Shown here piece after piece: positions 35,448-58,709 of a DNA stretch of 64,000 nucleotides. The notes under the pieces were generated by a model. The model was not told where the DNA came from. It worked only from the letters and a program-made list of their open reading frames with translations, and searched no databases. This DNA comes from a virus, in IMG/VR virus record IMGVR_UViG_3300038393_001027, positions 47,152 through 111,151 of that record; one strand, 5' to 3'. The position numbers and the translations under genes are program-made. Within the stretch, counting starts at the first letter, position 1. Every line of letters starts with the position of its first letter.

Positions 35448-35460
35448 CCCCTGAGAAAAA

Positions 35461-35541
35461 CATGAAACGGCCTCGCCCATACCCCTGCCGACGCCCCCAG
35501 TTACGGGAGTGAGTGGATGAGGTATGAGCGGGCCGTCCATG
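35461..35541 (-). promoter_or_regulatory. long RNA hairpin in the leader of the protease-capsid operon
   Basis: CAUGGACGGCC-CGCUCAUACCUC pairs with GGGGUAUGGGCG-AGGCCGUUUCAUG; G.U pairs form on the minus strand. Confidence 0.65.
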
Positions 35542-35659
35542 AAGGACACGATTGTGCCGCTGGAACCAAGATACCACAGGTGGCTAATTGTTGACAATAC
35601 ATCAGGAAGGAAAACCCTCAAAGATGCCCGAATTTGTGCATCAGAAGGGGGTTTCCGGC

Positions 35660-36705: not shown

Positions 36706-39700
36706 CTACCTCCTCAGCAAGATAACGTGTGCAAGGTTGCCAAAGGACTTCGCCACGGCCAGTTCCCGTTCCTTCTGGGTGAAGCCGTGCTTCTCTGCCA
36801 GCCGGGCGGCCTGCGCCTCCAACTGGTCGGCCCGGCGGTTCAGGTTCTTCTGATGGACCTTCCAAGCCTGCGTGCTGAGCATTTCCGTGTAGTTCTCGCT
36901 GACCATCTTCCGCTGTTCGGGGTCCCACACCTTGCGGGTGCGCTCCTGATAGCGGTTCTGGGCGTTCTTCCGGACGTCAGCCGCCATCCGGGTCAGCGAC
37001 TCGTGCTTGCGCCGGGCCGCTTCCACCGGGTCAGCCTTGGACGCCTTCTGGGCACCGAAGCGCTTGTGCTCGCCTGCCAGCGCCGCCTTGTAGCCCGGCC
37101 CGGCCGGAACGTCACCGACGAAGCCTTCAGCCGCTCGGGTAGCCTGCTCAACCGCTTGGATGTTGGAAACCTTGCGGTCGTGTGCGTTCAGGATGTCGTT
37201 GTGGATCGTACCCGGAAGGAAGGGTGACTCGACGGATACCGTGTTGTCAGCGCCCAGCGCCGCCCGCTTCCCCTTGGAGTCGGAGCGCCGGGTACGGGCA
37301 ACCTTCTGCGCCGTCTTCTGCGGGTTCCATTCGTGGTCAAGGCTCAGGAACAGTTGGCCTGTACCGAAGTCCTTGCCCTCCTTGGCCGCCGAAGACATGA
37401 TCATAATGTTGGGGCCGTTCCGGTCGTTGAACGTAGCGGCGCCCTGATCACGGGTCACGGCGTCATCCTCACCCGTGTAGGTGGCATGCTTCAGCTTTGG
37501 GTAGTCGCGTTGGATCTCCCGCACGACGTTCTCCAGCACCTTGGTGCCCAGCGCCACGTACTGCGACGACAGGACAATCTTCGGCGGGACTTCTGGCTGA
37601 CCAGCCGCCCGGCGGTTAGCATTTAGCTCTTCAAGGGCGCCCAAGTGCTTGCGGATGCGCTCACCCATCCATTTTGCCATGGGGCTGTTCTTGTGGAGCG
37701 GTACGAACTTCTTGCCATCCATCACACCGTGGAAGCCCGTCTTGGGGTCCGTATGCAGGGCCGCCACAGCCGCCGCCTCAGCGCCTGCGTCAAGCTCGTC
37801 GCCCGCATTCTTGAGCGCCCGTGCGTACTCCGTGTGTCGATGCAGGGCCTCCCAAGCGTCTGGGGCGTTCATGAACTGCTGAAGCTTGTTCACACCAGAC
37901 AGGTAGCCCGTAGCAGATGACCCAGCGGCGTTGTCATAGCCCGTTGCCGCGTCGCCGCGAAGCTTGGAAAGCTCGTTGGCGCCCATCAGGTCCTTCTCAA
38001 GCTTGAAGTACCGCTCGTAGAAGTTCTTGTGGAAGTCGTCTAGCTGGTTCAGATCCGGGGTGTACATGTTGTAGTCGGCGCCCGACTTCAACTGCTCCAC
38101 CTTGGTATTGAAGTGGGGGTGAACCGGGACCTTGGCGCCGTGGAAAGCGTTCGGCTCACCCACAACACCCTCTGGCCGGGCGATGTCAGGGAACTCAACG
38201 CCCACATCCTCACCCTTGCGGAATTGGACGTACTTCGCCAGCGTCTTGCCCAGTTCCTCCATCTTGTCCGGGTGGACCCGGATGACCTTGCCGCCCTTGC
38301 GCTCGAAGAAGTTGTTTAGGAACTCCTCCTTCGAACCAAGCCCGTGCTGGCCCATCGTACCCATGTTGACGAGGTTCCAAAGCTCCGTCGGGTCGTTCTC
38401 CATCGGCGTGCCCGACAGACCCCAGACGTTCTGGACGCCCTTGGCGCCCGCCACATCCTGCAGGGCCGTACCGCGCGAGCCGTCAGGCTTCTTCAGGTTG
38501 TGAACCTCATCCAGTACCATCGTGTCGAAGTCGCCCCCGGTGAACAGGTGGGCGTTCTTGGCGAAGAAGTCCTGCGACACAACGATGACGTCATGGTCCA
38601 CTGTGCTCATGTCCAGTGGAGACTTGTCACTGTGCGCCAGATAGGGCGCCCGCAGGTCCTCTTCTGGTGTCACCGTACCAAACATGCCGCCCCGGCCGCC
38701 GCTAGGACCGCCAACCACGGCGATCTTGACGTTGGTGTGTCGCTTGAACTCCTTCAGCCAGTCCGATCGGATGCCTGACGGCGCCACGATAACGGACTTC
38801 TTCTGGGGCAGACCCGCCGCCTCAGCTTCAGCCATCTTGTCCACGATGCCCAAGACGCCTAGCTGGGTCTTGCCCGTGCCCATGCCGTGTCCAGCGACGC
38901 CACGCTTGCGGGTGCGCAGAAAGTGCACGCCCTGAAGCTGTGTGTCGTAAAACTGCTGGGTGGTCCACTTCTTGGAGTCTTCTTTGAGCAGGCGCTTGAG
39001 CGCTTCCGCCTTCTTCCCGCCCGCCTTGACGATCTCAGCAGGCTGGTACTTGGCCGCACGCTCTTCCTTGGTCAGGAAGCCTTCCGGCCGCGACTGCTCT
39101 TCAAGGTACTTGTTGGTAACCTCGTTGGCCTTGTCGGTCAGGGTGAAGCCGCCAAAGACCTCACGGAACTTGTCGAACTGGGCCAGCGACATCTTGGCCT
39201 GCCCGTTCTTGTCCACGGGGAGCTTCAGGTCCTCCGTGAACGTCTGCCGGAAGGCCTCCGGCACATGGGCAACCAGATGATCCTTGCCCCAGTCCAGAAG
39301 CGGCAGTGAGCCAGTCAGGGTGTCACGCTTGCGCACGTGGCTAAGCTGGGCGTTGTCGGTGCTGACCTTGAAGGTTTGGTCACCAACTCGGACGCGCATA
39401 ACGCCCGTCTTCTCGCCATCATGCACATATTCATGCTCGATGACGCCTTCCTGCCACTTCGACTGGCCCTTCATCCGGAAGCGGATCCCGTTGCCCTCTT
39501 CGTGGGCAACCTTCTTCATGGCCGTGGTCTTGGTCTTTCCCTCAACCAGCTTGCCATTCTTGAACAGGGCCTTTTGCTTCTGCGCCGGGTCAGTTAGATC
39601 CGCTGAATCGGCGTAGAGCATCCCATCCCATGGGCCGCCGACAACGGTTGGGGTCCCCAGACCGTTGAACTGAAGCTGTAGATGGTGGTGGGCGCCCTTA

Positions 39701-42700
39701 CCAGCCTCCCACTGCGAGTTGCTGATCGTCACCCATGCTTTGCGGCCGATCGACTGGGTGATGGCAAAGTCCAGATCAAACTGAGACTGGATCCCGTTTG
39801 GCATGGAAGACGTGTTGAGCAACTGGCGCATCACCGGGTCCGTTAGCTGACCGTCAGCGCCTACATGGTAGGTAGCAATCCGGCCGTCCGGCATGCGCTT
39901 CTTGAAGGTGATCGACCCGTCATCGGCCACTTTGGGTACCAGATCTTCGGCCCGGCTCAGTTCCCGCTTGGCGGCCTTGCGCTGGACGTCGGCGGCGGCG
40001 TTATCCGTCTTCGACAGGACGCCGCTCCATTCATCCTCCGTCAAAACGGCCAGCTTGTGCGTGTCCTTGTCGGCGTAGTCGGCCCCGTACGCCCACTTCT
40101 CCATCAGTTCGGGGAGCATCAAGCCCTTCTTCCCGCCTGTGGTCCCGTGGACCTTATCGTAGGCCTCCTGCCCGCCCTTGGCGTCGTAGAGCATACCCAG
40201 CAGAGCGCCATAGCTCGACTCGTGCTTCGATACACCCTTGCCGCCTGCGTCATCGATGGACCAGACGTCACCCAACTGGGACGTCAAACCCTCGCCGCCC
40301 TTGGCGCCCTTGTCAGCCGCCTTACCCAGCTTGATCTCAAAGGCAACGCGCTTTCCGTTTGGCCCGGTTGCCATGTAGTAGCCGGGCGGCAGATAGCGGC
40401 GGCCTTCTTTGATCTGCTTGAAGTCGTCAGTAGAGCGGAACTGGTCCCGATGCTCCATGAAGCGTCGCCGCAGTTCTTCCACATCGTCCGTTACGTGGGC
40501 GGTCTTGGCGTCACGTGCTGACGCCGCATCCTGCTGGGCAAGCTCTTCCCCAACATCGTCGGTCTTCTCGTGGAAGTCATGCTCGGCCCGGACCTCGCCC
40601 TCATCATCTAGCTCCTGATGCTTGCCGGACTCCGGGTTGTACCCGGAGTCTGCATCACCAGAGTCATAGAGGATGGAAGGATTGTCCCCGCCCTGAATCA
40701 GGATGTGGTGACCGCCCCATGTGATCCACGCAGAACCGGGGTTGTCCTGCAGGAGTTGCTCCGACCAAGTAAGGGCGCCTGACTTCTGGCTGAGCCGCCC
40801 CTGCTGGTCTTTCACATGGGACTCAAATCGTTGGCGGCCTGCACCACGGACCCACTCACGCACCTTCTGGTTGCGCCGGGTCCGATCCACCGCCGACAGA
40901 TGGCCGTTCGTGCCCATCGACTTCTGCAGGAAGTCAGCCGTGCTGATGGCCTTCTCCAGCAGGGAATCCGCCGGGAGGATCGGCTCGCCCAGCGTCAGGA
41001 TGACGCCTTCAGCACCGTGCGCCCGTACAGTCGTCATGATGTACTCAGTTGGACCCAGCCTGTCGGCGATGGCATCCAGCGACTTGACCACGATCTGCCG
41101 GGTGGGCGCCCAGTCACAGACCGACATGTCCAGCCCGTAAGCGGCCAGCGCGTCTTCCAGATCGGACTCAAAGAGCGACTTCAGCAGGGTGTTTCCCAGC
41201 CCAAAGCCCTTCATAACCAGTTCCTTGATGTGGCTAACCGCATCAGGGTTCTTGGTCACGTAGTCCTTCAGCTTCTTCAGACCCCGGCTGTACCGCTGGC
41301 GGGCGTTGTCGTGACTGATGCCCAGCGCCTGCGCAACGGCCGGGAAGTCGATCAGTTCGGCGCTACGCATGCCAGAACCAAGTCCGTGGCGTGCCTGAAT
41401 GACGGCCAGTTCGTTCTTGTCCAGCCCGGCATCGTTCAGGATGGCGTTCAGACCAGCCTTCTGCGCCTTCCGGACCTCGCCCGCCATGGCCTGCCGTTCC
41501 GTGTCGTTCTCACCCGCAACCTGCTCGTGCTTGGCGATGGCCTTGTCGGGGTGATCAGCGTCGGTCACGTTCCGGTCAAGGCTGGTCGTCTTGTTCAGGT
41601 GGTACAGTGACTCCATGGCCGCTACCTTGTCGCCCGTGGCGGTCAGGTACTCACCGCGCTTGCCCGGCTTGAGGAGCTTGACGTCAGCCCACTCAGGCTT
41701 GTTGGCGTCCAGCCAATCCCCGATGTTCGCCCGGTTGGCCGTCTTGCCTTCCTTCTCCAGCGCTGACTTGGCCTGATGGTACATGGCAAGGGGCGCCCGA
41801 AGCTCACGGGGGAGCTTGATCTGGTCGAACATGCCGTTGCCGTAGCGGCTCATCCGCTGTTGGGCTCGGGCGATGGCGTAGTTGGAGGGGTCCCGCAGGG
41901 CCTGCAGGCGCTCCAAGTTGCCGTTTTCCTTGTTCTGGTTCCACTCACGGACGCCTTCCAGCAAACCTGTGCGGAACTCCTGCGCCAAATCGGAGAAGTA
42001 GCCTGTGTCGATGCCGCTGATCTTCTCATAGGTCTGCACGTGGTCCAGACCCTTGGACTGCATGAACTTCTTCGCCATGTGGCGGGTCATGCCTTCCATA
42101 CGGTTCACGAAGTCTTCTTCGGTCACATGTGCCAGCCTCTCGAACTGGATGGGACCGCCTTCATACTCCCGAACCAGCCGGGGAACTTGGCGCCCGGAAG
42201 CGGTCTTTGCCATCTCGATCTTGGGGAGCCTGAAGTCACCCGAGTGCGTGCGGCCTGCGTTCTGCGCGTCGCCGAACATCTCCGCTACCTTGTCCTGCAG
42301 GGTGCCGAAGTCCTCACCTGTGGCCTCCTTCAGGTTGGCAACCTGCTGGGCGGCCTCCTGCTGGATGGTGTCGGGGGTGTTGGTGCCTTGCTTGTACTTG
42401 GCGCCCGTGCCGATGACCTTACCCTCAGCCTTCGTCCGGGTCAGCTTGTTCTCACCCGTCTTCTGGTCGCGGGTCCACGACGCGACCTCGATCGCCGGAG
42501 ACTCCTCGATGCGCTTCTTCTCAGCGGCCTTGCGCTGGCGGGCGGCCGTCTTTTGGGCCTTCTCCTTTGCCGCCGCCGTGCCCTTCTTGTGCGTCTGAAG
42601 CCGCTTGGCCGTCTCCTTGCCCGGCTTCAGCGCTTCAGCGGTCACCTTGGCCGCCTTCTTTACGCCCTTGTCAGCGTTGACCGTCTTGGCGGCGTGCGCC

Positions 42701-42996
42701 TGCTTGATCTCCGTGCGCTTCGCCATGTCAGCCGGAAGCGTCTCCGGGGCGATGGTGCCGTTGGCCCGGATGTAGATGTGGTGTCCCCGCATGGTGCGCC
42801 ACTCACCGCCGGGGTACTTCTGCTCTAAGTTGCTCCGATGTTGCGCTTCGATCTTAGTGGCCGGGGCTGATGCCTTCTTGACTGGGGCCGCCGCCTTCTT
42901 CGCCGGGGTCTTGGTCTTTGACGCAGATTTGGCGGGGGCCTTAGCCCCCGCCTTCTTCGCCGTGACCGCCTTCATCAGGTTGTCAGCGAAACCCAT
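36706..42996 (-). CDS. 2096-aa polyprotein: sigma70-family factor (aa ~290-580) plus SNF2-family ATPase (aa ~1345-1950); putative capsid cargo
   Basis: Sigma: DLAQEFRTGLLEGV, SNYA, IKLP, TSLD, LAVIQARHGL, VAQALGISHDNARQ...GLKKL. SNF2: GMGTGKT, DEVH, LSGTPMEN, EWNP. Confidence 0.85.
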   Translation of the reverse strand: MGFADNLMKAVTAKKAGAKAPAKSASKTKTPAKKAAAPVKKASAPATKIEAQHRSNLEQKYPGGEWRTMRGHHIYIRANGTIAPETLPADMAKRTEIKQAHAAKTVNADKGVKKAAKVTAEALKPGKETAKRLQTHKKGTAAAKEKAQKTAARQRKAAEKKRIEESPAIEVASWTRDQKTGENKLTRTKAEGKVIGTGAKYKQGTNTPDTIQQEAAQQVANLKEATGEDFGTLQDKVAEMFGDAQNAGRTHSGDFRLPKIEMAKTASGRQVPRLVREYEGGPIQFERLAHVTEEDFVNRMEGMTRHMAKKFMQSKGLDHVQTYEKISGIDTGYFSDLAQEFRTGLLEGVREWNQNKENGNLERLQALRDPSNYAIARAQQRMSRYGNGMFDQIKLPRELRAPLAMYHQAKSALEKEGKTANRANIGDWLDANKPEWADVKLLKPGKRGEYLTATGDKVAAMESLYHLNKTTSLDRNVTDADHPDKAIAKHEQVAGENDTERQAMAGEVRKAQKAGLNAILNDAGLDKNELAVIQARHGLGSGMRSAELIDFPAVAQALGISHDNARQRYSRGLKKLKDYVTKNPDAVSHIKELVMKGFGLGNTLLKSLFESDLEDALAAYGLDMSVCDWAPTRQIVVKSLDAIADRLGPTEYIMTTVRAHGAEGVILTLGEPILPADSLLEKAISTADFLQKSMGTNGHLSAVDRTRRNQKVREWVRGAGRQRFESHVKDQQGRLSQKSGALTWSEQLLQDNPGSAWITWGGHHILIQGGDNPSILYDSGDADSGYNPESGKHQELDDEGEVRAEHDFHEKTDDVGEELAQQDAASARDAKTAHVTDDVEELRRRFMEHRDQFRSTDDFKQIKEGRRYLPPGYYMATGPNGKRVAFEIKLGKAADKGAKGGEGLTSQLGDVWSIDDAGGKGVSKHESSYGALLGMLYDAKGGQEAYDKVHGTTGGKKGLMLPELMEKWAYGADYADKDTHKLAVLTEDEWSGVLSKTDNAAADVQRKAAKRELSRAEDLVPKVADDGSITFKKRMPDGRIATYHVGADGQLTDPVMRQLLNTSSMPNGIQSQFDLDFAITQSIGRKAWVTISNSQWEAGKGAHHHLQLQFNGLGTPTVVGGPWDGMLYADSADLTDPAQKQKALFKNGKLVEGKTKTTAMKKVAHEEGNGIRFRMKGQSKWQEGVIEHEYVHDGEKTGVMRVRVGDQTFKVSTDNAQLSHVRKRDTLTGSLPLLDWGKDHLVAHVPEAFRQTFTEDLKLPVDKNGQAKMSLAQFDKFREVFGGFTLTDKANEVTNKYLEEQSRPEGFLTKEERAAKYQPAEIVKAGGKKAEALKRLLKEDSKKWTTQQFYDTQLQGVHFLRTRKRGVAGHGMGTGKTQLGVLGIVDKMAEAEAAGLPQKKSVIVAPSGIRSDWLKEFKRHTNVKIAVVGGPSGGRGGMFGTVTPEEDLRAPYLAHSDKSPLDMSTVDHDVIVVSQDFFAKNAHLFTGGDFDTMVLDEVHNLKKPDGSRGTALQDVAGAKGVQNVWGLSGTPMENDPTELWNLVNMGTMGQHGLGSKEEFLNNFFERKGGKVIRVHPDKMEELGKTLAKYVQFRKGEDVGVEFPDIARPEGVVGEPNAFHGAKVPVHPHFNTKVEQLKSGADYNMYTPDLNQLDDFHKNFYERYFKLEKDLMGANELSKLRGDAATGYDNAAGSSATGYLSGVNKLQQFMNAPDAWEALHRHTEYARALKNAGDELDAGAEAAAVAALHTDPKTGFHGVMDGKKFVPLHKNSPMAKWMGERIRKHLGALEELNANRRAAGQPEVPPKIVLSSQYVALGTKVLENVVREIQRDYPKLKHATYTGEDDAVTRDQGAATFNDRNGPNIMIMSSAAKEGKDFGTGQLFLSLDHEWNPQKTAQKVARTRRSDSKGKRAALGADNTVSVESPFLPGTIHNDILNAHDRKVSNIQAVEQATRAAEGFVGDVPAGPGYKAALAGEHKRFGAQKASKADPVEAARRKHESLTRMAADVRKNAQNRYQERTRKVWDPEQRKMVSENYTEMLSTQAWKVHQKNLNRRADQLEAQAARLAEKHGFTQKERELAVAKSFGNLAHVILLRR

Positions 42997-42998
42997 AG

Positions 42999-44795
42999 TC
43001 AGACCCTCCTCTGCTTGCCCAATTGGGACGGATGGATGATGAAGAGGGATTTCTGGATCCCGTTCTCACCCGTTGTCGGGTTGTAGTAGCGCTGTACACG
43101 GGCACCCGCCGCCTCATGGACCGGGCCGATGAGCAGACCGTGCGGCAGAGCCTGCTCAGCCTTGTAGATGGTCTGAGCGTTCAGGGCGCCCTGCTGGGTC
43201 TGTCCCTTGGCTTGCTTGGCGGCCTTACGTGCTTCATAGCCGCCGGATGCCCCCTGTTGGGACTTCTTCAGGGCGCCGATGTCCTTCCCAGCGGATCCCC
43301 ATGGGTCGCGCTTGTAGTCAGCATCGGACGGGCGCCTGCTGGCGTCAGCCTCCAGCGCCCTCAGGAAGTTCTCCTGTGCCTGCTGATCGAAGACGAACCG
43401 GGTCCCACCCATGTGCTTGGCGCCAACCTTCTGGAAGTAGGGCGCCGTCTCCGTCATGGCGTTGATGACAACCTTCTGACCTTCTGCCTTCTCAAAGACA
43501 GCCGCCAGTAGGCGGGACCCGGCGCCCGGCTGGACGCTCTCGACCCCCCGATGACTGGGTGCCGTCTCCAGATACTCAACAACCATGCCGCTGTAGTTCT
43601 GGTCAGGATGCATCCGGCAGAAGACAAAGCCTGCCCACTCCCCACCTGACTTCAGGCCGATGAAATGATGGGCCTGCTCATAGTGGTCCAAGCTCCCACT
43701 TGCCCGGTCGTCAACCAAATCGACCAGCGCCTTGCCGAAGTGTACTGGGTACTCCCCGGACTCTTCCCAGTCCTCCACAGCCGCGAAGATCTCGTCACCG
43801 CTGGGGTTCTCATAGAGTCCGAAGCCCTTCACCTTGTCGTAGGTTGCCAGTCGCCTACCTTGGGCGCCCTGTTGGGCACTGGAATGGCGGTTGACACCCT
43901 TACCAGTCCCGTCCTTCGGCAGGGTTTTCGGGTCGATGCCGCCTTTGCCGCCATTCACCGGGACCCGGCCCGGCCCGTCCTGTGTCCGGATGGCGCCTGC
44001 GGCGCCCTTACCTGACTGGGCGCCCGGCTTCTGCTTCAGGTCGTCATGCGTCATCATCTGACCCTCTCCGGTCGCCTGCTCTGTTTCCGGCTGGGCCGGG
44101 CCGACTTGGTTGTCAGCCGGGGCCTTCCCGTCGAACTTGGCGGCCTCCTTCTGGGGGTTGGCCGTTTTCTTAACCTGCTTCCACTCGTCTACGTTGCGGT
44201 AGGTCTCGTCGAAGATCTTGCCGTCTACCACCCACTGGTCGCCCCGCAGGCCTTCGACGAGGTAATCCCCGGCCTTGCCGTGCATGACCTCGCCGCCCCG
44301 GTTCTCCAGCGTCTTGACGGTGAAAGGCTCAGTCATCTTCTTCGCCCTGACAACCTCACTGGGGTCCTTAAAGAACTCCTCCCAGCCGTCATCACCTACA
44401 GCAGACCCAGCCGTCTGGCCTCCGCTTCCTGCGCTCTTGTCCGGGCGAAGATCACCTGATTTCGAACCAGAAGCCATTCGACCTCCGGCCGGGGCGCCCT
44501 TGCCTTGGTCCTCATCCGGCGCTTTCTGGGCCATCGACTCTTTTTCCGCCATGCCACGGCGCCCACCCCCCGCCGACTTCAGCAGGTCCACGGTAGCCAG
44601 CGCCTTGATGACGGTCGGGGACCGCAGGTTCATGATGTGGGCCGGGATGTCAGCCCCTGCCTTCTGCAGATCCTGAATGAGCCGGGCCACAACGTGATCT
44701 AGGGCGCCCTGCTCCTCGATCGACTTCACCACAGACGGGGAACGAAGGTAGTCCACCCGCGCTTCCAGATCTGCCTTGCTCGTGCCTACGGCCAT
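42999..44795 (-). CDS. PGDYG-like domain plus GNAT acetyltransferase protein; putative capsid cargo
   Basis: GKAGDYLVEG..G..W.V....F..TY; VEYLETAPSHRG...GAGSRLL...A......YFQKVG. Confidence 0.75.
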   Translation of the reverse strand: MAVGTSKADLEARVDYLRSPSVVKSIEEQGALDHVVARLIQDLQKAGADIPAHIMNLRSPTVIKALATVDLLKSAGGGRRGMAEKESMAQKAPDEDQGKGAPAGGRMASGSKSGDLRPDKSAGSGGQTAGSAVGDDGWEEFFKDPSEVVRAKKMTEPFTVKTLENRGGEVMHGKAGDYLVEGLRGDQWVVDGKIFDETYRNVDEWKQVKKTANPQKEAAKFDGKAPADNQVGPAQPETEQATGEGQMMTHDDLKQKPGAQSGKGAAGAIRTQDGPGRVPVNGGKGGIDPKTLPKDGTGKGVNRHSSAQQGAQGRRLATYDKVKGFGLYENPSGDEIFAAVEDWEESGEYPVHFGKALVDLVDDRASGSLDHYEQAHHFIGLKSGGEWAGFVFCRMHPDQNYSGMVVEYLETAPSHRGVESVQPGAGSRLLAAVFEKAEGQKVVINAMTETAPYFQKVGAKHMGGTRFVFDQQAQENFLRALEADASRRPSDADYKRDPWGSAGKDIGALKKSQQGASGGYEARKAAKQAKGQTQQGALNAQTIYKAEQALPHGLLIGPVHEAAGARVQRYYNPTTGENGIQKSLFIIHPSQLGKQRRV

Positions 44796-44798
44796 GGG

Positions 44799-47700
44799 TT
44801 ACTTCGCCCCCTTCTTGGGCTTGGCGCTGGTGGAAGATTTCTTCGTGGGTGAAGAAGTTCCCTTCTTAGTAGCCGCCGCTTCTGCCATTTCGTAGCCCGT
44901 CTTCTTCGACTTGGTAGTTTTACCCGTTGTGGCGTCTCGGATGATGGGCTTCTTACCCATTACCGAATCACCGAGAGACCCGCTTCCCTTGCCATAGAGC
45001 TTCTCCATGGCCGCCGCGCCCTCAGCCTTGATCTGTGCGTTGCGCTCGGCGTTCAGTTGGCGAGCCGTCTTGGGCTTGGCGGGAGCCTGCTCGGGCGCCG
45101 GGGCCGCCTTACCAGCCTTGACTGGGGCCGCTCCCAGATCCTGTGCCCTTACCTTGGTCCGGGCCGTCTTCGCCATCTCCGACTCAGACTTGGCCGCCGC
45201 CTTGGCGTTCTTGGCGGCCGCCCGCTCGTCAGCCGCCGCCTTGGCCTTGCTGTAGCTCTCCCGCGCCTTCGCCACGGCGCCTGCATCGGCGCCCAGCATC
45301 TCCAACACGTCAGCCACGGTCAGTTTGGAACTCACCTTGTTCGCGTCCACAGACCCATCAGACCCGAACACGTCAGCGATGAGCTTCCCCTTGCGCTCCA
45401 GCACACTCATCTTGCGCTGGTCAATCGAGTCAGCCATCTCAAACTGCTGGTGGTGGAAGTTGCTCTCCTGCCCCTGACGGTAGCCTCGGCCCAGCCGCTG
45501 TTCCATGGCCGCCGGAGTCCACTCGTAGTCCAGATCGATGTGCATGTTGGAGTTGGCCTGCAGGTTCATGCCTTCCGTCCCGGCCTTGGTCATCAGGATG
45601 ACCTTACCTTTGCCCGCGTTGAAGTCGATCTCGGCCTGATCACGGGCCTTCTTCGACGTCGATCCCTGCACATACAGGAAGTCGCTGTCACGGAAGCCAT
45701 GCTCAGCCTTCAACTGCTCCTTCAGGAACTCCAGCGTCCGGGGCGACTGTCCGAAGACGATCGTGCCCTTGCCGCCCTTGTAGTTGTTCTCTTCGTTGGT
45801 ACGTTCCCAGTTTGTGGCGATCTGGTCAGCCGCCTCCGTGATCTTGGGCGATGCATACCCCTTGGTCCGGATCTGCTTCAGGACGGGGTTGGCGGCCTTG
45901 ATGCCCAGCCCTTCCAGCGCCTCCGGGGTGTCGATCAGCCGGGGATCGATGGCGATCTGCTCCAGCCGCATAAGCTGGGTCAGCATGTGCATGTCCACCT
46001 TGGCGGCGCCGTCCATCCCCTGAAGCTCCTCAAGCATGGACCCGCGCAGGTTGCCGTAGAGCTTCTTCTGCGAATCGTCCATGTCCAGAACGGCCACATC
46101 ATGGGTCTTGGGCGGCATGGCGATCTTCACGCGGGGATCCTGCTTCTCCAACATGAAGAAGTAGGGCGCGATGAGCTTGCGCAGGTTCTCGCGCTCGTTC
46201 CCCTTCACGCCGACGACAACCTTGGTCTCGCCGTCACCCTTCAGGTTGGGGATGGTGTCATACTGGGCAAATTTCTGCACGAAGCGCTTCTTTTCACCCA
46301 GTACACCGGGGTTCATGAACTCCATGGCCCGGTAGGTCTCGTCCAGCTTGTTCATCATGGGGGTTGCTGTCAGCCACCATGTGAACTTCGGCGACATGTG
46401 CTCGAAGGCCGCCTTCGACCGGGCGCTCTTGGGATCCTTCAGGTAGTGCGCCTCGTCGAAGATGGCGATGTCGTTCTGCAGGGCGGCCTTGATCTGGGCG
46501 CCCTCGTTGGTCATGATGGCGTAGCTCATGACCACGTAGTCAGCCTTCTTGGCCTCCTTGTACAGGCGCTTGCGCTCCTCCGGGCCGCCGTCGATCTTCA
46601 CAACCTTCTTGCCGTCGAAGAACTTGTGGACCTCACGCTCCCAGCCGCCCAAACGGGACGCTGGGACCACGATGACAGTCGGACCCTTCGCCTTGCCCTC
46701 CTGCTTCAGCTTCTCAGCCGCCAGCAGACTGGTCAGGGTCTTGCCCAGACCCGTACCGAAGCCCAGAACACCCTTCTCGATGGTGTTCAGGTAGTGCACG
46801 CCGGACCACTGGTAGCCATGAGGCTTGATGCCCTTCTTCATGGATTTGATCTTGACCGGATCTTCCACCTGCTGGGCCAACTCGCCCGCCTTCGCCCGGT
46901 CGCCCTGTGACGTCAACTGCTTGTGCAGGGCCGGATGATCCTTCTTCAGGGCGTCCAGCGCCGACTGGTCAAAGCTGAACAGCGGGCCGAACTTATCCAC
47001 CAGCCCGGCCAGTTGCTTGGCGGGGAGCATGTCACCCGGCAACGTCCACCGGGGCTTTGGATAGCTGTCGTAGTAGGCGCCTGTCTTGGCAACGGCGTTC
47101 TTGAAGCTCCGGTGGGTCTTGTCGTTGTTGTTGTAGCCCACCATCTGGATGCGGTAGCTTCCATTTTCGAAGCTGACCGTGGGCCGCAGGCCTCCAGCCT
47201 GCTCTTCCTCGATCTGCTTCCGCTTTTGAGCCAGCCATTCAGCCCCTGAAATACCGCCGGACGGCCCACTTGCGGCCGGGGCGCCCGGCTGGGCCGGACC
47301 ACCTGCAGGCTCGCCCTTGTATGGGGGCGCCTTGGGGTCATGCCGGAAGGCGCCCTTGATGTTGTTCTTGAGCAGGTAGCCCAGTGCCTGCCCCGCATGA
47401 CCGCTGTCGGTCTTGATGGGGATGTGCCAGCCGGGGCTTTCGTCATTCTCCTTCCAGACGCCGCCCATGGCCTTGATCTGGTCCTTGTGCTCGAAGGTGT
47501 TGTTCTTGGCGCCACCCGGCAGAGTCTTTGGGATCACAAGCCAGCCACGGGCGCCGAAGCCATGTTGCTTCTCAACCTGCTTCAGGATGGCCTCAACCTT
47601 GTCACCCATACCAGAGGTGTCCCGAACGGTCGCCGTGGTGCTCGATGACGCCTCAGCCATCACCTCGCGGGCCTTCCGGGCGGCCAGCGTGTGATGCTCG

Positions 47701-47876
47701 TAAGTCATGCCGGGCCATGCGGTCTCGGGCACGATGCGCCCCTTGTGCACGTAGACATGACGCCCGTGCATGGTCACCCAGTGTCCGCCGGGGTACTTGG
47801 ATGATAGTTCCTCACTGATGCCCTTCAGCAGGATGGCGCCCGGCACATAGGTGAGACCTTTGATCAGTAGTTGCAA
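44799..47876 (-). CDS. SNF2-family ATPase with DUF5710/HARP-like N-terminal domains; putative capsid cargo
   Basis: YQ..GV, GTGLGKT, DEAH, LTATPMMN, EGMNLQ, EQRLGRGYRQGQ. Confidence 0.9.
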   Translation of the reverse strand: MQLLIKGLTYVPGAILLKGISEELSSKYPGGHWVTMHGRHVYVHKGRIVPETAWPGMTYEHHTLAARKAREVMAEASSSTTATVRDTSGMGDKVEAILKQVEKQHGFGARGWLVIPKTLPGGAKNNTFEHKDQIKAMGGVWKENDESPGWHIPIKTDSGHAGQALGYLLKNNIKGAFRHDPKAPPYKGEPAGGPAQPGAPAASGPSGGISGAEWLAQKRKQIEEEQAGGLRPTVSFENGSYRIQMVGYNNNDKTHRSFKNAVAKTGAYYDSYPKPRWTLPGDMLPAKQLAGLVDKFGPLFSFDQSALDALKKDHPALHKQLTSQGDRAKAGELAQQVEDPVKIKSMKKGIKPHGYQWSGVHYLNTIEKGVLGFGTGLGKTLTSLLAAEKLKQEGKAKGPTVIVVPASRLGGWEREVHKFFDGKKVVKIDGGPEERKRLYKEAKKADYVVMSYAIMTNEGAQIKAALQNDIAIFDEAHYLKDPKSARSKAAFEHMSPKFTWWLTATPMMNKLDETYRAMEFMNPGVLGEKKRFVQKFAQYDTIPNLKGDGETKVVVGVKGNERENLRKLIAPYFFMLEKQDPRVKIAMPPKTHDVAVLDMDDSQKKLYGNLRGSMLEELQGMDGAAKVDMHMLTQLMRLEQIAIDPRLIDTPEALEGLGIKAANPVLKQIRTKGYASPKITEAADQIATNWERTNEENNYKGGKGTIVFGQSPRTLEFLKEQLKAEHGFRDSDFLYVQGSTSKKARDQAEIDFNAGKGKVILMTKAGTEGMNLQANSNMHIDLDYEWTPAAMEQRLGRGYRQGQESNFHHQQFEMADSIDQRKMSVLERKGKLIADVFGSDGSVDANKVSSKLTVADVLEMLGADAGAVAKARESYSKAKAAADERAAAKNAKAAAKSESEMAKTARTKVRAQDLGAAPVKAGKAAPAPEQAPAKPKTARQLNAERNAQIKAEGAAAMEKLYGKGSGSLGDSVMGKKPIIRDATTGKTTKSKKTGYEMAEAAATKKGTSSPTKKSSTSAKPKKGAK

Positions 47877-47881
47877 CGTTG

Positions 47882-49783
47882 TTACCCCCTTATGCGTTCC
47901 ATACGCTTGCGCCGGGCGTAGCTTGTGTGCCCCATCGACAGGTCAGCCAGCGCCTCTTCTGGGGTCCGGGCGCCCTCGCGTACGTCCCGCGCGGCCTCCA
48001 ACAACGTTCGACGGTTGCTGTTACCCAGCAAGCTGTGCACCTTAGGACCAAGCGCCCCAACGGCGTCCTGATGCAGGGCAGTCGGGCTGTTCCAGAAGTC
48101 CTTCGGGGTCCGGGCGCCCTTCAGCGTGTCCAACACGTGTTGGGCCGCCTCTTGATGCATCTGCCAGCCTTCCTTTGTCGGCAGAGGCTGGAAGTACTCG
48201 TCATCACCACTGTTTCCGACAACATGCGGCATGTCTTCAGCCTGATCATGCAGTGCCTGCAGAACAAACTTCTTCCACGCCACCTTCTCCTTCTTAGCGG
48301 CGTCAGCCAACATGGCCCGGCCATGGGCGCCCGAAGCCTTGGCAGGCTTAACACCAGACACTGCTCCTTGAATCCGGGCAAGCAACCCCTTGGGCGACGT
48401 CGCGTCCTGTAAGAACGTCTGCAGGGATGCCAGTTCCGGATGCCCGGTCACATGTTTAAGCGCCTTGCCCGCCGCCGCCGACACAGCCGCTACGTCCTTC
48501 ATGGGTGCCCGACTGAATTCACCCAGCGCCGCATGAAGTGCTGTGGCCGTCTTCTCTGGGAGCATGTCAGCCGCGTCTGCAATGCTGGCACCCTTACGGA
48601 AGAAGGGCGATCGGGATGCCATGTGCTCCAGCGCCATGGCAAACTTGCCGTGTACAGCGGCTGGTAGGTTGGCGAAAGCCTTGTGTGCGGCCTCTTCGAT
48701 CTGATGCGCATGATTGAACTGGGACTGATCCGCCTTTACCTTGGCCTCACGGGCCTTGGCATCCTGCTGTGCCTCTGCTTCCCGTGCCTTCTGTACCTGC
48801 TCGCGGATCTTCTCAGCGACAGACTCCTTTGGTGTCTTATCAGCTTCAGTCAGAAGACCCTGCTGGCGGGCCAGTGCCCGGCACTTCGAGCACGTTAGCT
48901 GGTGAGCGTCGAACTTTAGACCATACGCCGGGGCTAGGGCGCCAGCGGCATGCACATCAACGCCCCGTACACCGTCAACTTGAAGCGTGCCTACACACGT
49001 GAAGCCGTCCGTGGTCTTGCGTGTCGCCTTGTCCTCGATGCGCTCACCAACCTTGTTACCCTTGGAGTCCCGCAGATGGATGACGTCACGTGAGTCACAG
49101 TACTCCACCTTGATCATGTGGACTTCACTGCCAGCCTTCCCATAGACGCCTAAGAACGTCCCCCGGTGAAGCTCGGGGTAGTTACCGTCAGCGTCTTGGT
49201 AACGCCGCCAACGGCGCCCGCTAACTTCGTCTTCGTACGTGTGCGGATAAGCCTTCAGCTTCAGCTTGCTAAGGTCAGATACACCCTGCAAGGCACCTGT
49301 CGGCCGCTCCTCCGGCTTCAGGTTGGCGAACGGGTCGCCCTTTGCGCCCTTGATGTTGACCTTGGTCGTGACCAGTGCCGTCGTCCCCTTAGACGTGGCT
49401 TTAGCCGGGGCCTTCGTGGCGCCCGGCTTCTTCTTTTCAGCTATGGTCTTCTTGGCCGCCTTGGGGTCCGGGGCCAGTTCAGGCTCGCCCCGGCGCTCGG
49501 CCAGCCGCTGAAGACGTCCCTTGGCCTTGTCTGGCTCCGGTTTGGCGGTCTTTGTCGCGGCCTTGGCCTTGACCGCCTTCGCAGGCTCGGCCTTGGCCTT
49601 GGTAGAGGGCGCCGTCTCCGGCGCCACCTTGCCATTCTTCATGATGTAGACGTGGCGCCCCCGTTCCGTCACCCAGTGCCCGCCGGGGTACTTGGCCTCC
49701 ATCTCCTTGCCGATGCCAGAGGACCGGGCGCCCTTGATGAGGTCCAGAGGGATGGTGTCGAAGCCCTTGATCAGCAGGCGCAC
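47882..49783 (-). CDS. unknown protein with PGGHWVT tag; putative capsid cargo
   Basis: 633 aa; LLIK/G and DLIK/G, then KYPGGHWVTERGRHVYI; Lys/Ala linker; Cys/His cluster. Confidence 0.8.
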   Translation of the reverse strand: MRLLIKGFDTIPLDLIKGARSSGIGKEMEAKYPGGHWVTERGRHVYIMKNGKVAPETAPSTKAKAEPAKAVKAKAATKTAKPEPDKAKGRLQRLAERRGEPELAPDPKAAKKTIAEKKKPGATKAPAKATSKGTTALVTTKVNIKGAKGDPFANLKPEERPTGALQGVSDLSKLKLKAYPHTYEDEVSGRRWRRYQDADGNYPELHRGTFLGVYGKAGSEVHMIKVEYCDSRDVIHLRDSKGNKVGERIEDKATRKTTDGFTCVGTLQVDGVRGVDVHAAGALAPAYGLKFDAHQLTCSKCRALARQQGLLTEADKTPKESVAEKIREQVQKAREAEAQQDAKAREAKVKADQSQFNHAHQIEEAAHKAFANLPAAVHGKFAMALEHMASRSPFFRKGASIADAADMLPEKTATALHAALGEFSRAPMKDVAAVSAAAGKALKHVTGHPELASLQTFLQDATSPKGLLARIQGAVSGVKPAKASGAHGRAMLADAAKKEKVAWKKFVLQALHDQAEDMPHVVGNSGDDEYFQPLPTKEGWQMHQEAAQHVLDTLKGARTPKDFWNSPTALHQDAVGALGPKVHSLLGNSNRRTLLEAARDVREGARTPEEALADLSMGHTSYARRKRMERIRG

Positions 49784-50170: not shown

Positions 50171-51721
50171 TTAATGGCCCTCCTTGTTGGCTAGTTCCGC
50201 TTGGGCGATGGCGCCCGTGTCGTCATTCTCGCCAGCTTCGTCAACAGCCTCTGCGATGCGGGCAGACAGAATAATGATTGGTACATGTTCGATGCCCAGT
50301 TCCAAAGCCGCATACCAGCGATGATGCCCATCTAGGATCATCCGGCTGAAGTCTACCAAGATGGGCGGCATGGCATCTCCTCTCTGGAAGGCCTCACGTA
50401 CCTTTACCAGTTTCGCCGGATTGAGCATCGGGATTTGGTTCTTGTTCGCCCCCAGCGTTTGCGGCGGTACCCAGCAGTTGTAGTAGGGCAGAACAGCCAA
50501 CCGATCTTCAAGATCTAGGTTGTAGTCAAGTCCCTTTACCAGCACGTCCGGGCGCCCGAAGAAGCTCTTGAGGGCCTGCCGCTCCATCAGGATCTCTTCC
50601 GGCGTCTTCAGGTCGATCCGGCCGTCCGGGGTCACCTTCATGAACTTGGGATTGAACCACTGCCAGCGGCAACGGCAGTTGGGGTGGGCCGGAATGCATG
50701 GGATCCAGTCCTTCTTCCGGCGGCCATAGTTGGTCTTGCCGATCCAGACCTCGCGCCACGGGTCGCCGGGCGCCCGGACCACCTTGAAGACCTTGCCGTG
50801 AATGTGCTCCCGGCACCACTCACAGGCGGTCCCGTCCGACTGGCCGATCACCCAGTCGCCCTCTTTGAGGGTAGCAAGGTAGCCGTTCGACATGCACTCA
50901 GCCAGTTCTGTGATGGCGATGCGGCGCCAATCCCGGTTAAACTCGCCCAACTGGTTGAGCAGGGCCTGCCGAAGCTCGTCTGGGGTCCAGCGCCCCCGGC
51001 GGGCCTCGATGACCAGTGACCGCACCTTCTGAATCACGTACTGATTCTGGGTGGCAATCTTTTCTCCTGCATGAAGTTGCGCCCACTTGATGGCTTCTTC
51101 CTCAAGGTTCGTCATGGGCAGTACGGGCTGGTCTGGGGCGCCCTTGTCAGCCCGCAGGCGGTACTCCTTGCCCGGCTGGGGCGCAGGCATCTGCTTGCGG
51201 GCACTGACGGTCACAGGTAGCTCCGGCATGAAGATCTGGGGGAGCTTCCGGCCCGCCCGGTCAAAGGCGCTCATCAGGGCGGCCAGTGCGTCAGCCTTGA
51301 TGATGTAGCGGTCGGCCAGCGTTGCGTTCTTGGCGAGCCCCTTGCGCAGGAGCTTCTCAATCTCGGCCAACTCAGCGGCGGTCCATGCCTTTCCGTCCCG
51401 CAGGTACTTGATGACGGACTTGGGCAGGTACTTGTAGCGCATCAGGTCGTCATGGGCGCCCTTGCTCAGGTTGATGGTGATGCCCTTGCCCAGCGGCTCA
51501 GGGCTGTGCATACCGTCTGAGTCAAAGTGCAGGGCTTCAGGCGGGGCGCCCAGTCCCAACTGATCGATCAAGTGCATGATGGTGACTGTGGTCGCATCCA
51601 TGAACTCCATGTAGGTGGCGTCTTCCAGATCAGCCCATGCAGGGTGCTGGTCGTTGCGTGTCCAGATACCCCCTAGGGTATCATCTAAGGTACTCAACGT
51701 GACTCCAAACGGATATGGCAT
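50171..51721 (-). CDS. MuF/gp7-like head morphogenesis protein with C-terminal ParB-like domain
   Basis: RIAITE, CEWC, PAHPNCRC; PPILVD...ILDGHHR. Confidence 0.88.
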   Translation of the reverse strand: MPYPFGVTLSTLDDTLGGIWTRNDQHPAWADLEDATYMEFMDATTVTIMHLIDQLGLGAPPEALHFDSDGMHSPEPLGKGITINLSKGAHDDLMRYKYLPKSVIKYLRDGKAWTAAELAEIEKLLRKGLAKNATLADRYIIKADALAALMSAFDRAGRKLPQIFMPELPVTVSARKQMPAPQPGKEYRLRADKGAPDQPVLPMTNLEEEAIKWAQLHAGEKIATQNQYVIQKVRSLVIEARRGRWTPDELRQALLNQLGEFNRDWRRIAITELAECMSNGYLATLKEGDWVIGQSDGTACEWCREHIHGKVFKVVRAPGDPWREVWIGKTNYGRRKKDWIPCIPAHPNCRCRWQWFNPKFMKVTPDGRIDLKTPEEILMERQALKSFFGRPDVLVKGLDYNLDLEDRLAVLPYYNCWVPPQTLGANKNQIPMLNPAKLVKVREAFQRGDAMPPILVDFSRMILDGHHRWYAALELGIEHVPIIILSARIAEAVDEAGENDDTGAIAQAELANKEGH

Positions 51722-52760: not shown

Positions 52761-52808
52761 GGTTCGTTCGACCTCCCTATGTGCTACTTCAGGGGCCGGG
52801 GCGCCCGG

Positions 52809-53339: not shown

Positions 53340-53359
53340 TCGATCGACCCCCTACAACG

Positions 53360-53392
53360 AAAAAAGGCGCCCCGGCCATGCCTAGGGCGCCC
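53360..53392 (-). terminator. probable intrinsic terminator
   Basis: GGCGCCC/GGGCGCC stem followed by T6 on the minus strand. Confidence 0.5.
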
Positions 53393-53432
53393 GTTGTCGG
53401 TAAGTTTCGACCTTAACGACTTTGTTCCTGCT

Positions 53433-58648: not shown

Positions 58649-58709
58649 GGTTTGGCCCACCCCCAATCTTGTCGTGTGTAAATTCCGTGGGTGGTGGGTG
58701 GATTCCTGC

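What the first reader, a model, noticed from the sequence alone, without database searches (positions are those of the whole stretch)
40696..49693. Shared PGGxWxTxxGxHxYI tag near the start of four predicted mature cargo products
Seen: KYPGGEWRTMRGHHIYIRANGTIAPET (42740-42819), KYPGGHWVTMHGRHVYVHKGRIVPET (47721-47798), KYPGGHWVTERGRHVYIMKNGKVAPET (49613-49693) and an internal NPGSAWITWGGHHILI (40696-40743). Each lies 8-60 aa after a K/[SAG] site, and the internal copy heads the SNF2 half of the polyprotein, so both halves would keep a tag after cleavage. The proteins are otherwise unrelated in these regions. Inference: a small beta-hairpin sorting signal for packaging, DNA/portal docking or ejection, potentially usable to load foreign cargo.
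Basis: partly seen in the sequence, partly recalled or inferred. Interest (0 to 1): 0.8.

Follow-up and report, generated by a model that had tools for sequence, protein, structure and literature searches.

The report
Hairpin header on phage capsid cargo
Three neighbouring head-region proteins of an uncultured 111-kb phage carry four copies of a small, uncatalogued helix-plus-hairpin peptide that in many other uncultured phages sits just behind likely head-protease cut sites at the start of enzyme modules, so it probably marks proteins that travel in the capsid, but what the peptide does has not been measured.

Summary
The motif PG[GS]xWxTxxGxH[IVL]x[IVL] occurs four times, all on the minus strand, in three ORFs (633, 1025 and 2096 aa). 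These lie between the MuF-ParB gene and the prohead protease/scaffold gene of a complete 111-kb phage with terminal repeats. Chance predicts about 0.015 hits.

The motif is not private to this phage. A profile found 76 protein clusters, most of them large polyvalent proteins with 2-5 copies. The copies sit next to ART, Zeta-toxin, topoisomerase IB, RadC, LPD1, Acb1, SNF2 and sigma-like domains, and just after MuF, portal or protease domains. Pfam, PHROGs, NCBIfam and PDB have no entry for it.

AlphaFold2 predicts a short helix plus a beta-hairpin behind a flexible leader. A hydrophobic-x-K-[SGA] site lies within 35 residues upstream in 55% of instances, against 15% of controls. Other subtypes follow AxE sites.

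Best reading: the folded half of a cleavable junction cassette that heads capsid-carried cargo modules. A pure packaging signal is less likely, because one polyprotein carries several copies, portal and MuF fusions carry it too, and the cargo-slot protein P0006 lacks it. Bdellovibrionota lytic transglycosylases carry it at their C-terminus outside any phage context. Neither cleavage, packaging nor ejection has been measured.

This scan noted the same cassette earlier in other uncultured phages.

The parts
47882..49783 (-). P0005, a 633-aa hairpin-bearing protein with no known domain. It is the first gene after MuF-ParB and a 123-aa ORF.
   Evidence: ORF and translation. GTG start behind AAGGAGG. 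No Pfam or PHROG family.
49733..49783 (-). P0005 leader, aa 1-17 (MRLLIKGFDTIPLDLIK), with two L-I-K|G candidate protease sites.
   Evidence: Sites listed. AF2 pLDDT below 50 across the leader. Cleavage is inferred, not measured.
49613..49717 (-). Module copy 1, P0005 aa 23-57: GIGKEMEAK helix plus the PGGHWVTERGRHVYI hairpin plus NGKVAPET.
   Evidence: AF2 predicts helix 2-9 and strands 14-18 and 21-25, with pLDDT about 80.
44799..47876 (-). P0004, a 1025-aa SNF2 ATPase (SNF2-rel_dom at aa 356-646, Helicase_C at aa 700-802) with the leader and hairpin at its N-terminus.
47721..47822 (-). Module copy 2, P0004 aa 19-52. It is preceded by the leader at aa 1-18 (47823-47876) with sites K6|G and K18|G.
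   Evidence: The leader is 50% identical to that of P0005.
36706..42996 (-). P0003, a 2096-aa polyvalent-type protein. The N-terminal half has a sigma-like HTH, and the C-terminal part has an SNF2 domain (aa 1341-1905).
   Evidence: Relatives carry Sigma70_r3 and a JGI sigma/SNF2 name.
42739..42843 (-). Module copy 3, P0003 aa 52-86. The nearest strict sites are K9|A and K41|A.
40672..40770 (-). Module copy 4 (internal, 'TWSEQLLxxNPGSxWITWGGxxILI' subtype), P0003 aa 743-775. It lies downstream of a cluster of five sites at aa 596-692.
   Evidence: The same subtype sits at aa 700-760 of about 1400-2300-aa relatives.
42999..44795 (-). P0006, a 598-aa PGDYG plus GNAT protein in the same slot. It has nine candidate K-sites but no hairpin.
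50171..51721 (-). MuF-like minor head domain fused to a ParB-like nuclease. This is the upstream border of the cargo slot, and it has no hairpin.
   Evidence: PHROG hits. Its homologues flank the motif ORFs in relatives.
33900..35621 (-). Prohead protease plus scaffold. This is the downstream border of the slot. It has 16 hydrophobic-x-K-[SGA] sites against 2.3 expected.
32412..33857 (-). Major capsid protein (SPO1-like, about 34% identity) with candidate maturation site ELNK31|A.

Best explanation
The four peptides are copies of an uncatalogued module of about 35-45 residues: a short helix, a Pro-Gly-Gly turn, a beta-hairpin W-x-T-x-x-G-x-H-[VI]-[YF]-I, and often G-x-[IV]-x-x-G/P. This module is the folded half of a junction cassette. 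A flexible stretch carrying the head protease's cut site comes first, and the helix-hairpin follows 2-25 residues later, so it becomes the N-terminal cap of whatever is released. Phages place this cassette in front of interchangeable enzyme modules encoded between the portal/MuF genes and the protease/scaffold genes. They do so either on separate genes, as in P0004 and P0005, or inside giant polyproteins, as in P0003. Proposed mechanism (inferred): the proteins enter the procapsid through their leader or through fusion to a head-anchored domain, and the prohead protease then cuts at the junctions. Each freed module keeps a hairpin, which acts after cleavage as a docking handle towards the DNA, the portal channel or the capsid interior, so that every fragment is kept in order and leaves with the genome at infection. 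Shown here: the motif, its family, its predicted fold, its genomic and architectural context, and the enrichment of sites upstream. Inferred: cleavage, encapsidation, and the post-cleavage role. My confidence is about 0.75 that it marks capsid-carried, protease-released cargo modules, and about 0.35 that the hairpin's own job is a post-cleavage retention or ejection handle.
For: The window holds 4 copies against 0.015 expected, and all lie in the MuF-to-protease slot. The profile search found 76 clusters, and a regex finds 120 instances in 69 of them. Median carrier length is 1076 aa, and 36 proteins have 2-5 copies. The carriers hold polyvalent-protein domains: ART-PolyVal, LPD1, Zeta_toxin, Acb1, Phage_Mu_F, Topoisom_I, RadC, PI3/4-kinase, PARP and DRAT. 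The hairpin lies directly after MuF (L031, P0032), after Peptidase_S78 (L013) and after Mu-type or lambda-type portal domains (P0083, P0087, P0098). In ten related 16-105-kb records every motif copy lies between the homologues of the window's MuF and protease/scaffold where both are on the record (the 16-kb fragment G002 holds only the MuF homologue). An unrelated 55-kb phage with an S78 protease shows the same order, and a 40-kb phage has its copy 3.8 kb downstream of an SPP1-type portal. All 35 IMG/VR pattern hits are in-frame true instances. Hydrophobic-x-K-[SGA] lies within 35 aa upstream in 65 of 119 instances against 14.7% of control windows (odds ratio 7, p=4e-22), with a modal spacing of 14 aa; 23 further instances follow [SAG]xE. 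The window's scaffold has 16 such K-sites against 2.3 expected, which marks them as the likely protease motif. AF2 predicts a low-confidence leader followed by a helix and hairpin at pLDDT about 83. One copy per module, and its presence on portal, MuF and protease fusions, fit a need that arises after cleavage rather than at loading.
Against: There is no experimental datum: no virion proteome, mapped N-terminus, packaging assay or ejection assay. P0006 and MuF-ParB sit in the same slot without the hairpin, so it is not required of all cargo. Nine Bdellovibrionota genomes carry it at the extreme C-terminus of an SLT lytic transglycosylase with no phage genes within 8 kb, which a capsid-specific handle does not explain. 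The internal subtype is not basic (net -1) and the mean hairpin charge is only +1, which weakens a DNA-binding version. 27 of 120 instances have no recognisable upstream site. The enrichment statistics treat related sequences as independent, and IMG/VR is viral by construction. Context could not be determined for 3 of the 21 records. No partner was identified.
Confidence: 0.45

Rival explanations
1. Processing determinant. The helix-hairpin is a rigid element on the P' side that keeps the preceding linker exposed, or acts as an exosite, so that the prohead protease cuts at defined junctions. It may also protect the new N-terminus. Under this reading it has no role after cleavage.
For: There is tight positional coupling to candidate sites, with a modal spacing of 14 aa and 2-5 aa for the AxE subtype. 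There is one hairpin per junction, including junctions after portal, MuF and protease domains. AF2 predicts a disordered site region next to a folded module.
Against: The same hairpin follows Lys-type and Glu-type sites and occurs in phages with different protease families (a PHROG_1028-type protease in this phage, Peptidase_S78 elsewhere), so it is unlikely to fit one enzyme. Spacing varies from 7 to 31 aa. 27 instances and the C-terminal SLT copies have no site. T4 needs no such element for CTS processing (PMC9026906).
Confidence: 0.25
2. Primary capsid-targeting signal. The hairpin binds the scaffold, capsid interior or portal of the procapsid and is what loads the protein.
For: It is confined to head-slot proteins in the window. 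It heads many stand-alone small proteins and cargo enzymes in phage head blocks. Precedents exist for short targeting peptides: the T4 CTS (PMC9026906) and the ordered loading of P1 Dar proteins (PMC12810830).
Against: Multiple copies per polyprotein are redundant for loading. It is present on portal, MuF and protease fusions that load by themselves. It is absent from P0006 and MuF-ParB. It would have to recognise very different capsids and scaffolds. The removable N-terminal leader is a better candidate for this role.
Confidence: 0.17
3. General ligand-binding hairpin that acts in or on the host cell after delivery. It could bind the cell envelope or peptidoglycan, a nucleic acid, or a conserved host factor, and it is merely frequent on injected proteins.
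For: It occurs at the C-terminus of chromosomal SLT peptidoglycan lyases in Bdellovibrionota. The only weak structural and sequence echoes are glucan- and choline-binding repeat hairpins: Foldseek top rows at E 0.35-1 over 23 residues at rmsd 0.7, Choline_bind_3 for 1 of 38 members at E 9e-4, and ESM Atlas rows. Trp, Thr, His and Tyr/Phe are conserved, as in sugar- or base-stacking sites.
Against: The matches are not significant, and such repeats work in tandem arrays, not singly. The cargo is mostly cytoplasmic DNA or nucleotide enzymes. The coupling to cut sites and module starts is left unexplained.
Confidence: 0.1
4. No function of its own: a shared ancestral N-terminal segment or a chance similarity.
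For: P0004 and P0005 share their leaders as well, which suggests duplication.
Against: 4 hits against 0.015 expected. W and G are invariant, and T and H nearly so, across 38-120 instances attached to unrelated domains in distant phages.
Confidence: 0.03

Closest known systems
Phage-type polyvalent proteins (Iyer, Burroughs, Anand, de Souza, Aravind 2017, PMC5512222)
   Same: Large multi-domain proteins encoded beside portal, MuF and protease genes, thought to be packaged and injected. The domain repertoire is the same (SNF2, ParB, ART-PolyVal, Zeta toxin, LPD1, RadC, MuF). Processing into units was proposed there.
   Different: That paper's main text attributes processing mainly to built-in zincin or assemblin peptidases. 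It describes neither this helix-hairpin nor a site-plus-hairpin junction. In this window the units are partly on separate genes.
T4 capsid targeting sequence of IPI-III and Alt (Mullaney and Black 1996, as reviewed in PMC9026906)
   Same: A short peptide at the start of unrelated cargo, coupled to a prohead-protease site. The cargo is delivered with the DNA. The CTS has been used to load foreign proteins.
   Different: The CTS is a roughly 10-residue propeptide that the protease removes, and it is N-terminal only. The hairpin lies downstream of the predicted cut, would be retained, is folded, and is often internal and repeated. The window's 17-18-aa leaders are the closer analogue of a CTS.
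Phage P1 Dar system (PMC12810830)
   Same: Head-internal anti-restriction proteins, including the roughly 2000-aa DarB. DarA is cut by the prohead protease. The proteins are co-ejected with the DNA and contact both the DNA and the capsid wall.
   Different: Loading depends on the DarA-Hdf pair bound to the capsid interior. No shared hairpin tag is known there. No DarA, Hdf or DarB family matched the window proteins, apart from one weak partial helicase-region hit of P0004 to a DarB-like PHROG.
MuF polymorphic toxins (Jamet et al. 2017, PMC5576092)
   Same: A MuF head domain followed by variable effector domains. Relatives (P0032, L031) place the hairpin right after MuF.
   Different: The window's carriers have no MuF domain; MuF is a separate gene upstream. 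That paper contains none of six searched words ('motif', 'linker', 'cleavage', 'central domain', 'conserved region', 'hairpin').
Cell-wall, choline or glucan-binding repeats (CW_binding_1 / Choline_bind_3)
   Same: A roughly 20-residue beta-hairpin with the pattern G-W-x-x-x-x-G-x-[WH]-[YV]-Y-[IL]-x-x-x-G. These give the best, though insignificant, fold and HMM echoes.
   Different: Those repeats work as tandem solenoids. Here the copies are single, with a preceding helix, and only 1 of 38 members touches the HMM.

Membership tests
Phage-type polyvalent proteins (Iyer et al. 2017) | One polypeptide combining two or more effector or DNA-handling domains | tested here: met
   P0003 has a sigma-like HTH plus an SNF2 domain over 2096 aa (relatives carry Sigma70_r3). 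P0004 has SNF2 plus extra N- and C-terminal regions. P0005 has no known domain, so the feature is not shown for it.
Phage-type polyvalent proteins (Iyer et al. 2017) | Encoded among late or head-morphogenesis genes of a portal-terminase phage | tested here: met
   The gene order is terminase-like ORF, portal, MuF-ParB, carriers, protease/scaffold, MCP, then a myovirus tail. The record is a complete DTR virus genome.
Phage-type polyvalent proteins (Iyer et al. 2017) | Packaged in the virion and delivered to the host | not testable with these tools
   There is no virion proteome. The phage is uncultured.
T4-type capsid targeting sequence | Located at the extreme N-terminus as a short propeptide | tested here: not met
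   The hairpins start at aa 33-66 or 757. Only 32 of 120 family instances lie in the first 70 aa.
T4-type capsid targeting sequence | Removed by the prohead protease | tested here: inconclusive
   Candidate sites lie upstream of the hairpin, so it would be retained. Cleavage itself has not been measured.
T4-type capsid targeting sequence | Necessary and sufficient for encapsidation | not testable with these tools
   Needs reporter fusions.
Choline/cell-wall-binding repeats (PF01473, PF19127) | Match to the family HMM | tested here: not met
   No window copy matches. 1 of 38 family members matches Choline_bind_3 at E 9e-4.
Choline/cell-wall-binding repeats (PF01473, PF19127) | Tandem array of repeats forming a solenoid | tested here: not met
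   Copies are single and separated by hundreds of residues.
WW domain (considered from memory because of LPPGxW...G.xYY...P) | Three-stranded sheet with two conserved Trp residues 20-22 residues apart, and a Pfam WW match | tested here: not met
   There is one conserved Trp. AF2 shows two strands plus a helix. There is no Pfam hit, and WW structures appear only at Foldseek E above 3.
MuF polymorphic toxins | N-terminal MuF domain in the same polypeptide | tested here: not met
   There is no Phage_Mu_F or MuF PHROG in P0003, P0004 or P0005. MuF is the separate gene at 50171-51721.

The most novel reading that the evidence does not exclude
The helix-hairpin is a universal exit (or retention-and-exit) handle that does not depend on the protease type. 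It would be recognised by a conserved feature of the DNA-filled head or of the portal-tail channel, so that any protein fragment bearing it at its new N-terminus is delivered into the host with the genome. Together with the short cleavable leader it would form a portable two-part address: load, cut, eject. That address could be used to load and deliver foreign proteins from phage capsids.
Probability: 0.2. Interest if true: 0.85.

Novelty: new variant of a known kind. Interest (0 to 1): 0.62.

Why it matters
Phages are known to carry enzymes in their heads and inject them: T4 internal proteins, the P1 Dar proteins, and MuF toxins. How such cargo is addressed, cut apart and expelled is understood for very few model phages. 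A conserved, uncatalogued junction cassette, found in many uncultured phages in front of anti-defence and host-takeover enzymes, would provide three things. It would be a sequence marker for finding capsid-delivered effectors in metagenomes. It would be a rule for predicting the mature products of giant polyvalent proteins. If the hairpin proves to be a handle, it would be a simple tag for loading proteins into phage particles. It also turns the open question of how internal proteins leave the head into a mutational experiment on four conserved residues.

Tried and rejected
- **Plus strand:** reading the given coordinates on the plus strand gives nonsense.
- **Family libraries:** Pfam on the 60-75-aa segments at E up to 10, and Pfam, PHROGs and NCBIfam on 38 module instances, returned no family.
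- **Solved structures:** the PDB profile search gave a best E of 0.11, matching generic BamB propeller hairpins. Foldseek on PDB and VIA-align wide found nothing significant; the best VIA-align Z was 2.5.
- **ESM Atlas:** no feature hit. The structural rows are short hairpins only.
- **Isolated phages and plasmids:** tblastn of small carriers against INPHARED phages and PLSDB plasmids gave no match at E up to 1. Large carriers hit isolated phages only through their enzyme domains. A profile search of two such phages, Tunturi_5 and Dfl-JY45, found no real copy.
- Context came instead from IMG/VR loci and the genome search.
- **Insensitive models:** the Pfam MuF and S78 models run in six-frame mode missed even the window's own genes, so the window's proteins were used as queries.
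- **WW-domain idea:** rejected (see membership test).
- **Autoproteolysis by the conserved Thr and His:** considered and not favoured, because the upstream sites differ in type and spacing. Not testable here.
- **DNA-binding basic tag:** weakened by the charge analysis, with a mean of +1 and the internal subtype at -1.
- **Word-index search:** the search with the module profile returned only 20 proteins, so it gives no family size.

Full report
**Observation.** The coordinates in the finding translate to nonsense on the plus strand. The genes are on the minus strand. Three long ORFs give the quoted peptides exactly: P0003 (36706-42996, 2096 aa), P0004 (44799-47876, 1025 aa) and P0005 (47882-49783, 633 aa). 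A six-frame scan with PG[GS]xWxTxxGxH[IVL]x[IVL] finds these four places and nothing else in 64 kb. 200 shuffles give 0.0 hits for the strict pattern and 0.015 for the core pattern. The window is part of a complete 111,151-bp virus record with direct terminal repeats. A profile of the four copies finds only these four in the whole genome.

**Surroundings.** PHROG and Pfam scans give this gene order on the minus strand:
- a portal-like ORF;
- a MuF-like minor head domain fused to a ParB-like nuclease (50171-51721);
- a 123-aa ORF;
- P0005;
- P0004 (SNF2 ATPase);
- P0006 (PGDYG plus GNAT, no hairpin);
- P0003 (sigma-like HTH, and an SNF2 domain at aa 1341-1905);
- prohead protease fused to scaffold (33900-35621);
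- an SPO1-like major capsid protein (about 34% identity);
- sheath and other myovirus tail genes.

The carriers therefore occupy the classical internal-protein slot of the head module. P0005 starts at a GTG behind a good ribosome-binding site. P0004 and P0005 also share a 17-18-residue leader, M[RQ]LLIKG...L[IL]K|G.

**The motif belongs to a wider family.**
- No Pfam, PHROG or NCBIfam model and no PDB sequence covers it.
- An exhaustive profile search of 1.84 billion representative proteins returned 76 clusters at E<=1e-3. About six of them are spurious beta-propeller repeats.
- A regex finds 120 instances in 69 proteins. The median length is 1076 aa, and 36 proteins have 2-5 copies.
- The consensus generalises to [LY]P(P/G)GGxW[VRI]T[IM]xGxH[VI][YF]IxxGx[IV]xxG/P.
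- Recognisable subtypes include the window's KYPGG...APET type, which is usually preceded by GIGxEM. They also include the internal TWSEQLLxxNPGSxWITWGG type, which sits at about aa 700-760 of roughly 1400-2300-aa relatives of P0003.
- The carriers contain ART-PolyVal, LPD1, Zeta toxin, Acb1, Phage_Mu_F, topoisomerase IB, RadC, a PI3/4-kinase-like domain, PARP, DRAT, DNA ligase, GNAT and Sigma70_r3. This is the repertoire of the polyvalent proteins of Iyer et al. 2017 (PMC5512222).
- The main text of that paper does not describe this peptide. The MuF-toxin paper contains none of six searched words (motif, linker, cleavage, central domain, conserved region, hairpin), and a search combining 'polyvalent protein', 'prohead protease' and 'cleavage' returned only the Iyer paper itself.
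- All cluster members looked up are unnamed metagenome proteins.

**Context elsewhere.**
- A back-translated DNA pattern found 35 loci in IMG/VR. All are true in-frame instances.
- In ten records related to this phage (16-105 kb, proteins 30-47% identical), every copy lies in large ORFs between the homologue of the window's MuF and the homologue of its protease/scaffold, where both are on the record. The 16-kb fragment G002 holds only the MuF homologue. The cargo domains differ from record to record.
- Unrelated smaller phages show the same logic. In a 55-kb DTR phage with a Peptidase_S78 protease, the copies lie between a weak MuF match and the protease. In a 40-kb DTR phage, the copy is 3.8 kb downstream of an SPP1-type portal.
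- The hairpin also sits immediately after a MuF domain (L031, P0032), inside a protease protein after the S78 domain (L013), and after Mu-type or lambda-type portal domains (P0083, P0087, P0098).
- Three records could not be placed.

**One clear exception exists.** Among 185,579 species genomes the pattern hits only 14 places. Nine of them are Bdellovibrionota proteins of about 250 aa. Each has an SLT lytic-transglycosylase domain, no signal peptide, a Lys-rich linker, and the hairpin as the last residues of the protein. A small exported protein is encoded next to it, and no phage gene was found in the 8-kb loci, of which four were read and eight neighbouring ORFs scanned against Pfam.

**Coupling to cut sites.**
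- In the window, the protease/scaffold protein has 16 hydrophobic-x-K-[SGA] sites against 2.3 expected. P0006 has 9 against 3.2 and MuF-ParB has 6 against 1.8. Tail proteins have few. This makes h-x-K|[SGA] the likely specificity of this phage's prohead protease. That is an inference.
- Across the family such a site lies within 35 residues upstream of the Trp in 65 of 119 instances, against 14.7% of control windows from the same proteins (odds ratio 7, p=4e-22). The instances are not phylogenetically independent. The modal distance is 14 residues, as in K|GIGxEMxxKYPGGxW.
- Many proteins begin with an 8-18-residue leader of the form MxLYIDLxK|[SGA]. The same string recurs at internal junctions.
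- Another subtype is preceded 2-5 residues upstream by [SAG]xE, for example HAEE, in 23 instances. From my own knowledge this resembles the Glu-specific sites of T4-type and phiKZ-type head proteases.
- The hairpin therefore follows cut sites of different chemical types.

**Structure.** AlphaFold2 with a 38-sequence alignment predicts a helix at residues 2-9 and a two-stranded hairpin at 14-18 and 21-25. Mean pLDDT is 75, and 84 across the hairpin. With the leader included, residues 1-22, which hold the candidate cut at K17|G18, fall below pLDDT 50, while the helix and hairpin stay at about 83. Fold searches give nothing significant. The top, insignificant rows are single hairpins of glucan- and choline-binding repeats. 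One of 38 instances touches Choline_bind_3 at E 9e-4. The hairpin is only mildly basic: mean +1, the window's three N-terminal copies +2 to +3, and the internal copy -1.

**Interpretation.** The best-supported reading is a junction cassette made of a flexible protease site followed by a folded helix-hairpin, which starts capsid-carried cargo modules. As to what the hairpin does, three facts argue against a pure loading signal:
- several copies occur in one polyprotein;
- it is present on portal, MuF and protease fusions that enter the head by themselves;
- it is absent from P0006 and MuF-ParB in the same slot.

The removable leader is the better analogue of the T4 capsid targeting sequence, a 10-residue propeptide that is sufficient for loading and is cut off by gp21 (PMC9026906). 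One retained hairpin per released fragment points to a need that arises after cleavage. I favour a docking handle for orderly retention and exit with the DNA. Internal proteins that contact both DNA and the capsid wall and are co-ejected are documented for the P1 Dar proteins (PMC12810830).

A processing-determinant role is nearly as likely. A general ligand-binding role is kept alive by the Bdellovibrionota SLT proteins. None of these can be separated without experiments.

**Earlier notes.** After reaching this reading I queried the scan's notes. At least eight follow-up reports on other uncultured 86-106-kb phages describe the same 'cut site plus hairpin header' on cargo modules. They agree with this report, but they are unchecked AI notes and do not count as independent evidence.

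**Verdict.** The feature is an undescribed variant of known capsid-cargo addressing and processing systems. It is widespread in uncultured phages, and its function is unproven.

Noticed in passing
window 33900-35621 (-): The protease/scaffold ORF carries 16 hydrophobic-x-K-[SGA] sites against 2.3 expected from its composition, mostly L-x-K|S in the scaffold half. P0006 has 9 against 3.2, and MuF-ParB has 6 against 1.8. These sites are likely the head protease's cut motif.
   Followed up: partly
L045-L049, L052-L054, L056 (Bdellovibrionota MAG contigs): SLT lytic transglycosylases of about 250 aa, without a signal peptide, end in ...LPxGGHW[IV]T[LI]xGxHIFIE[DE]K. This is the same hairpin at the extreme C-terminus. 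A conserved exported protein of about 155 aa is encoded next to them, and no phage genes were seen within 8 kb.
   Followed up: partly
P0083, P0087, P0098 (metagenome proteins): Portal proteins (Mu-type PF06074, lambda-type PF05136) have C-terminal extensions that begin with the hairpin. One of them continues into an ART-PolyVal domain.
   Followed up: partly
window 41255-42125 (-), within P0003: The N-terminal half of P0003 looks sigma-70-like. There is a weak Myb/HTH Pfam hit at aa 549-576, relatives carry Sigma70_r3, and one has a JGI name combining sigma subunit and SNF2. A virion-carried sigma factor fused to a remodelling ATPase would be unusual.
   Followed up: partly
window 52200-54191 (-): Three adjacent ORFs contain repeated F.EA...G..V.R..W segments that resemble DUF2829/Tad2 by eye. 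They were not tested with a family search.
   Followed up: no
G011:C1:60593-61789; G008:C1:37708-38835; G014:C1:63299-64426: The MuF homologues of three related phages show in-frame stops in the six-frame match: 4 TGA plus 1 TAA in one, and 1 TAG in each of the other two. Possible causes are frame errors, split genes or recoding.
   Followed up: no
window 54899-55957 (-) and 56591-58666 (-): The 352-aa ORF holds three tandem copies of PQPEHNRTG(RTG)A. The portal-like ORF ends in a long Q/H/E-rich repetitive tail.
   Followed up: no
window 42999-44795 (-), P0006: This PGDYG plus GNAT protein has a cluster of four candidate K-sites in its first 73 residues but no hairpin. It is a natural internal control for any tag hypothesis.
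   Followed up: partly
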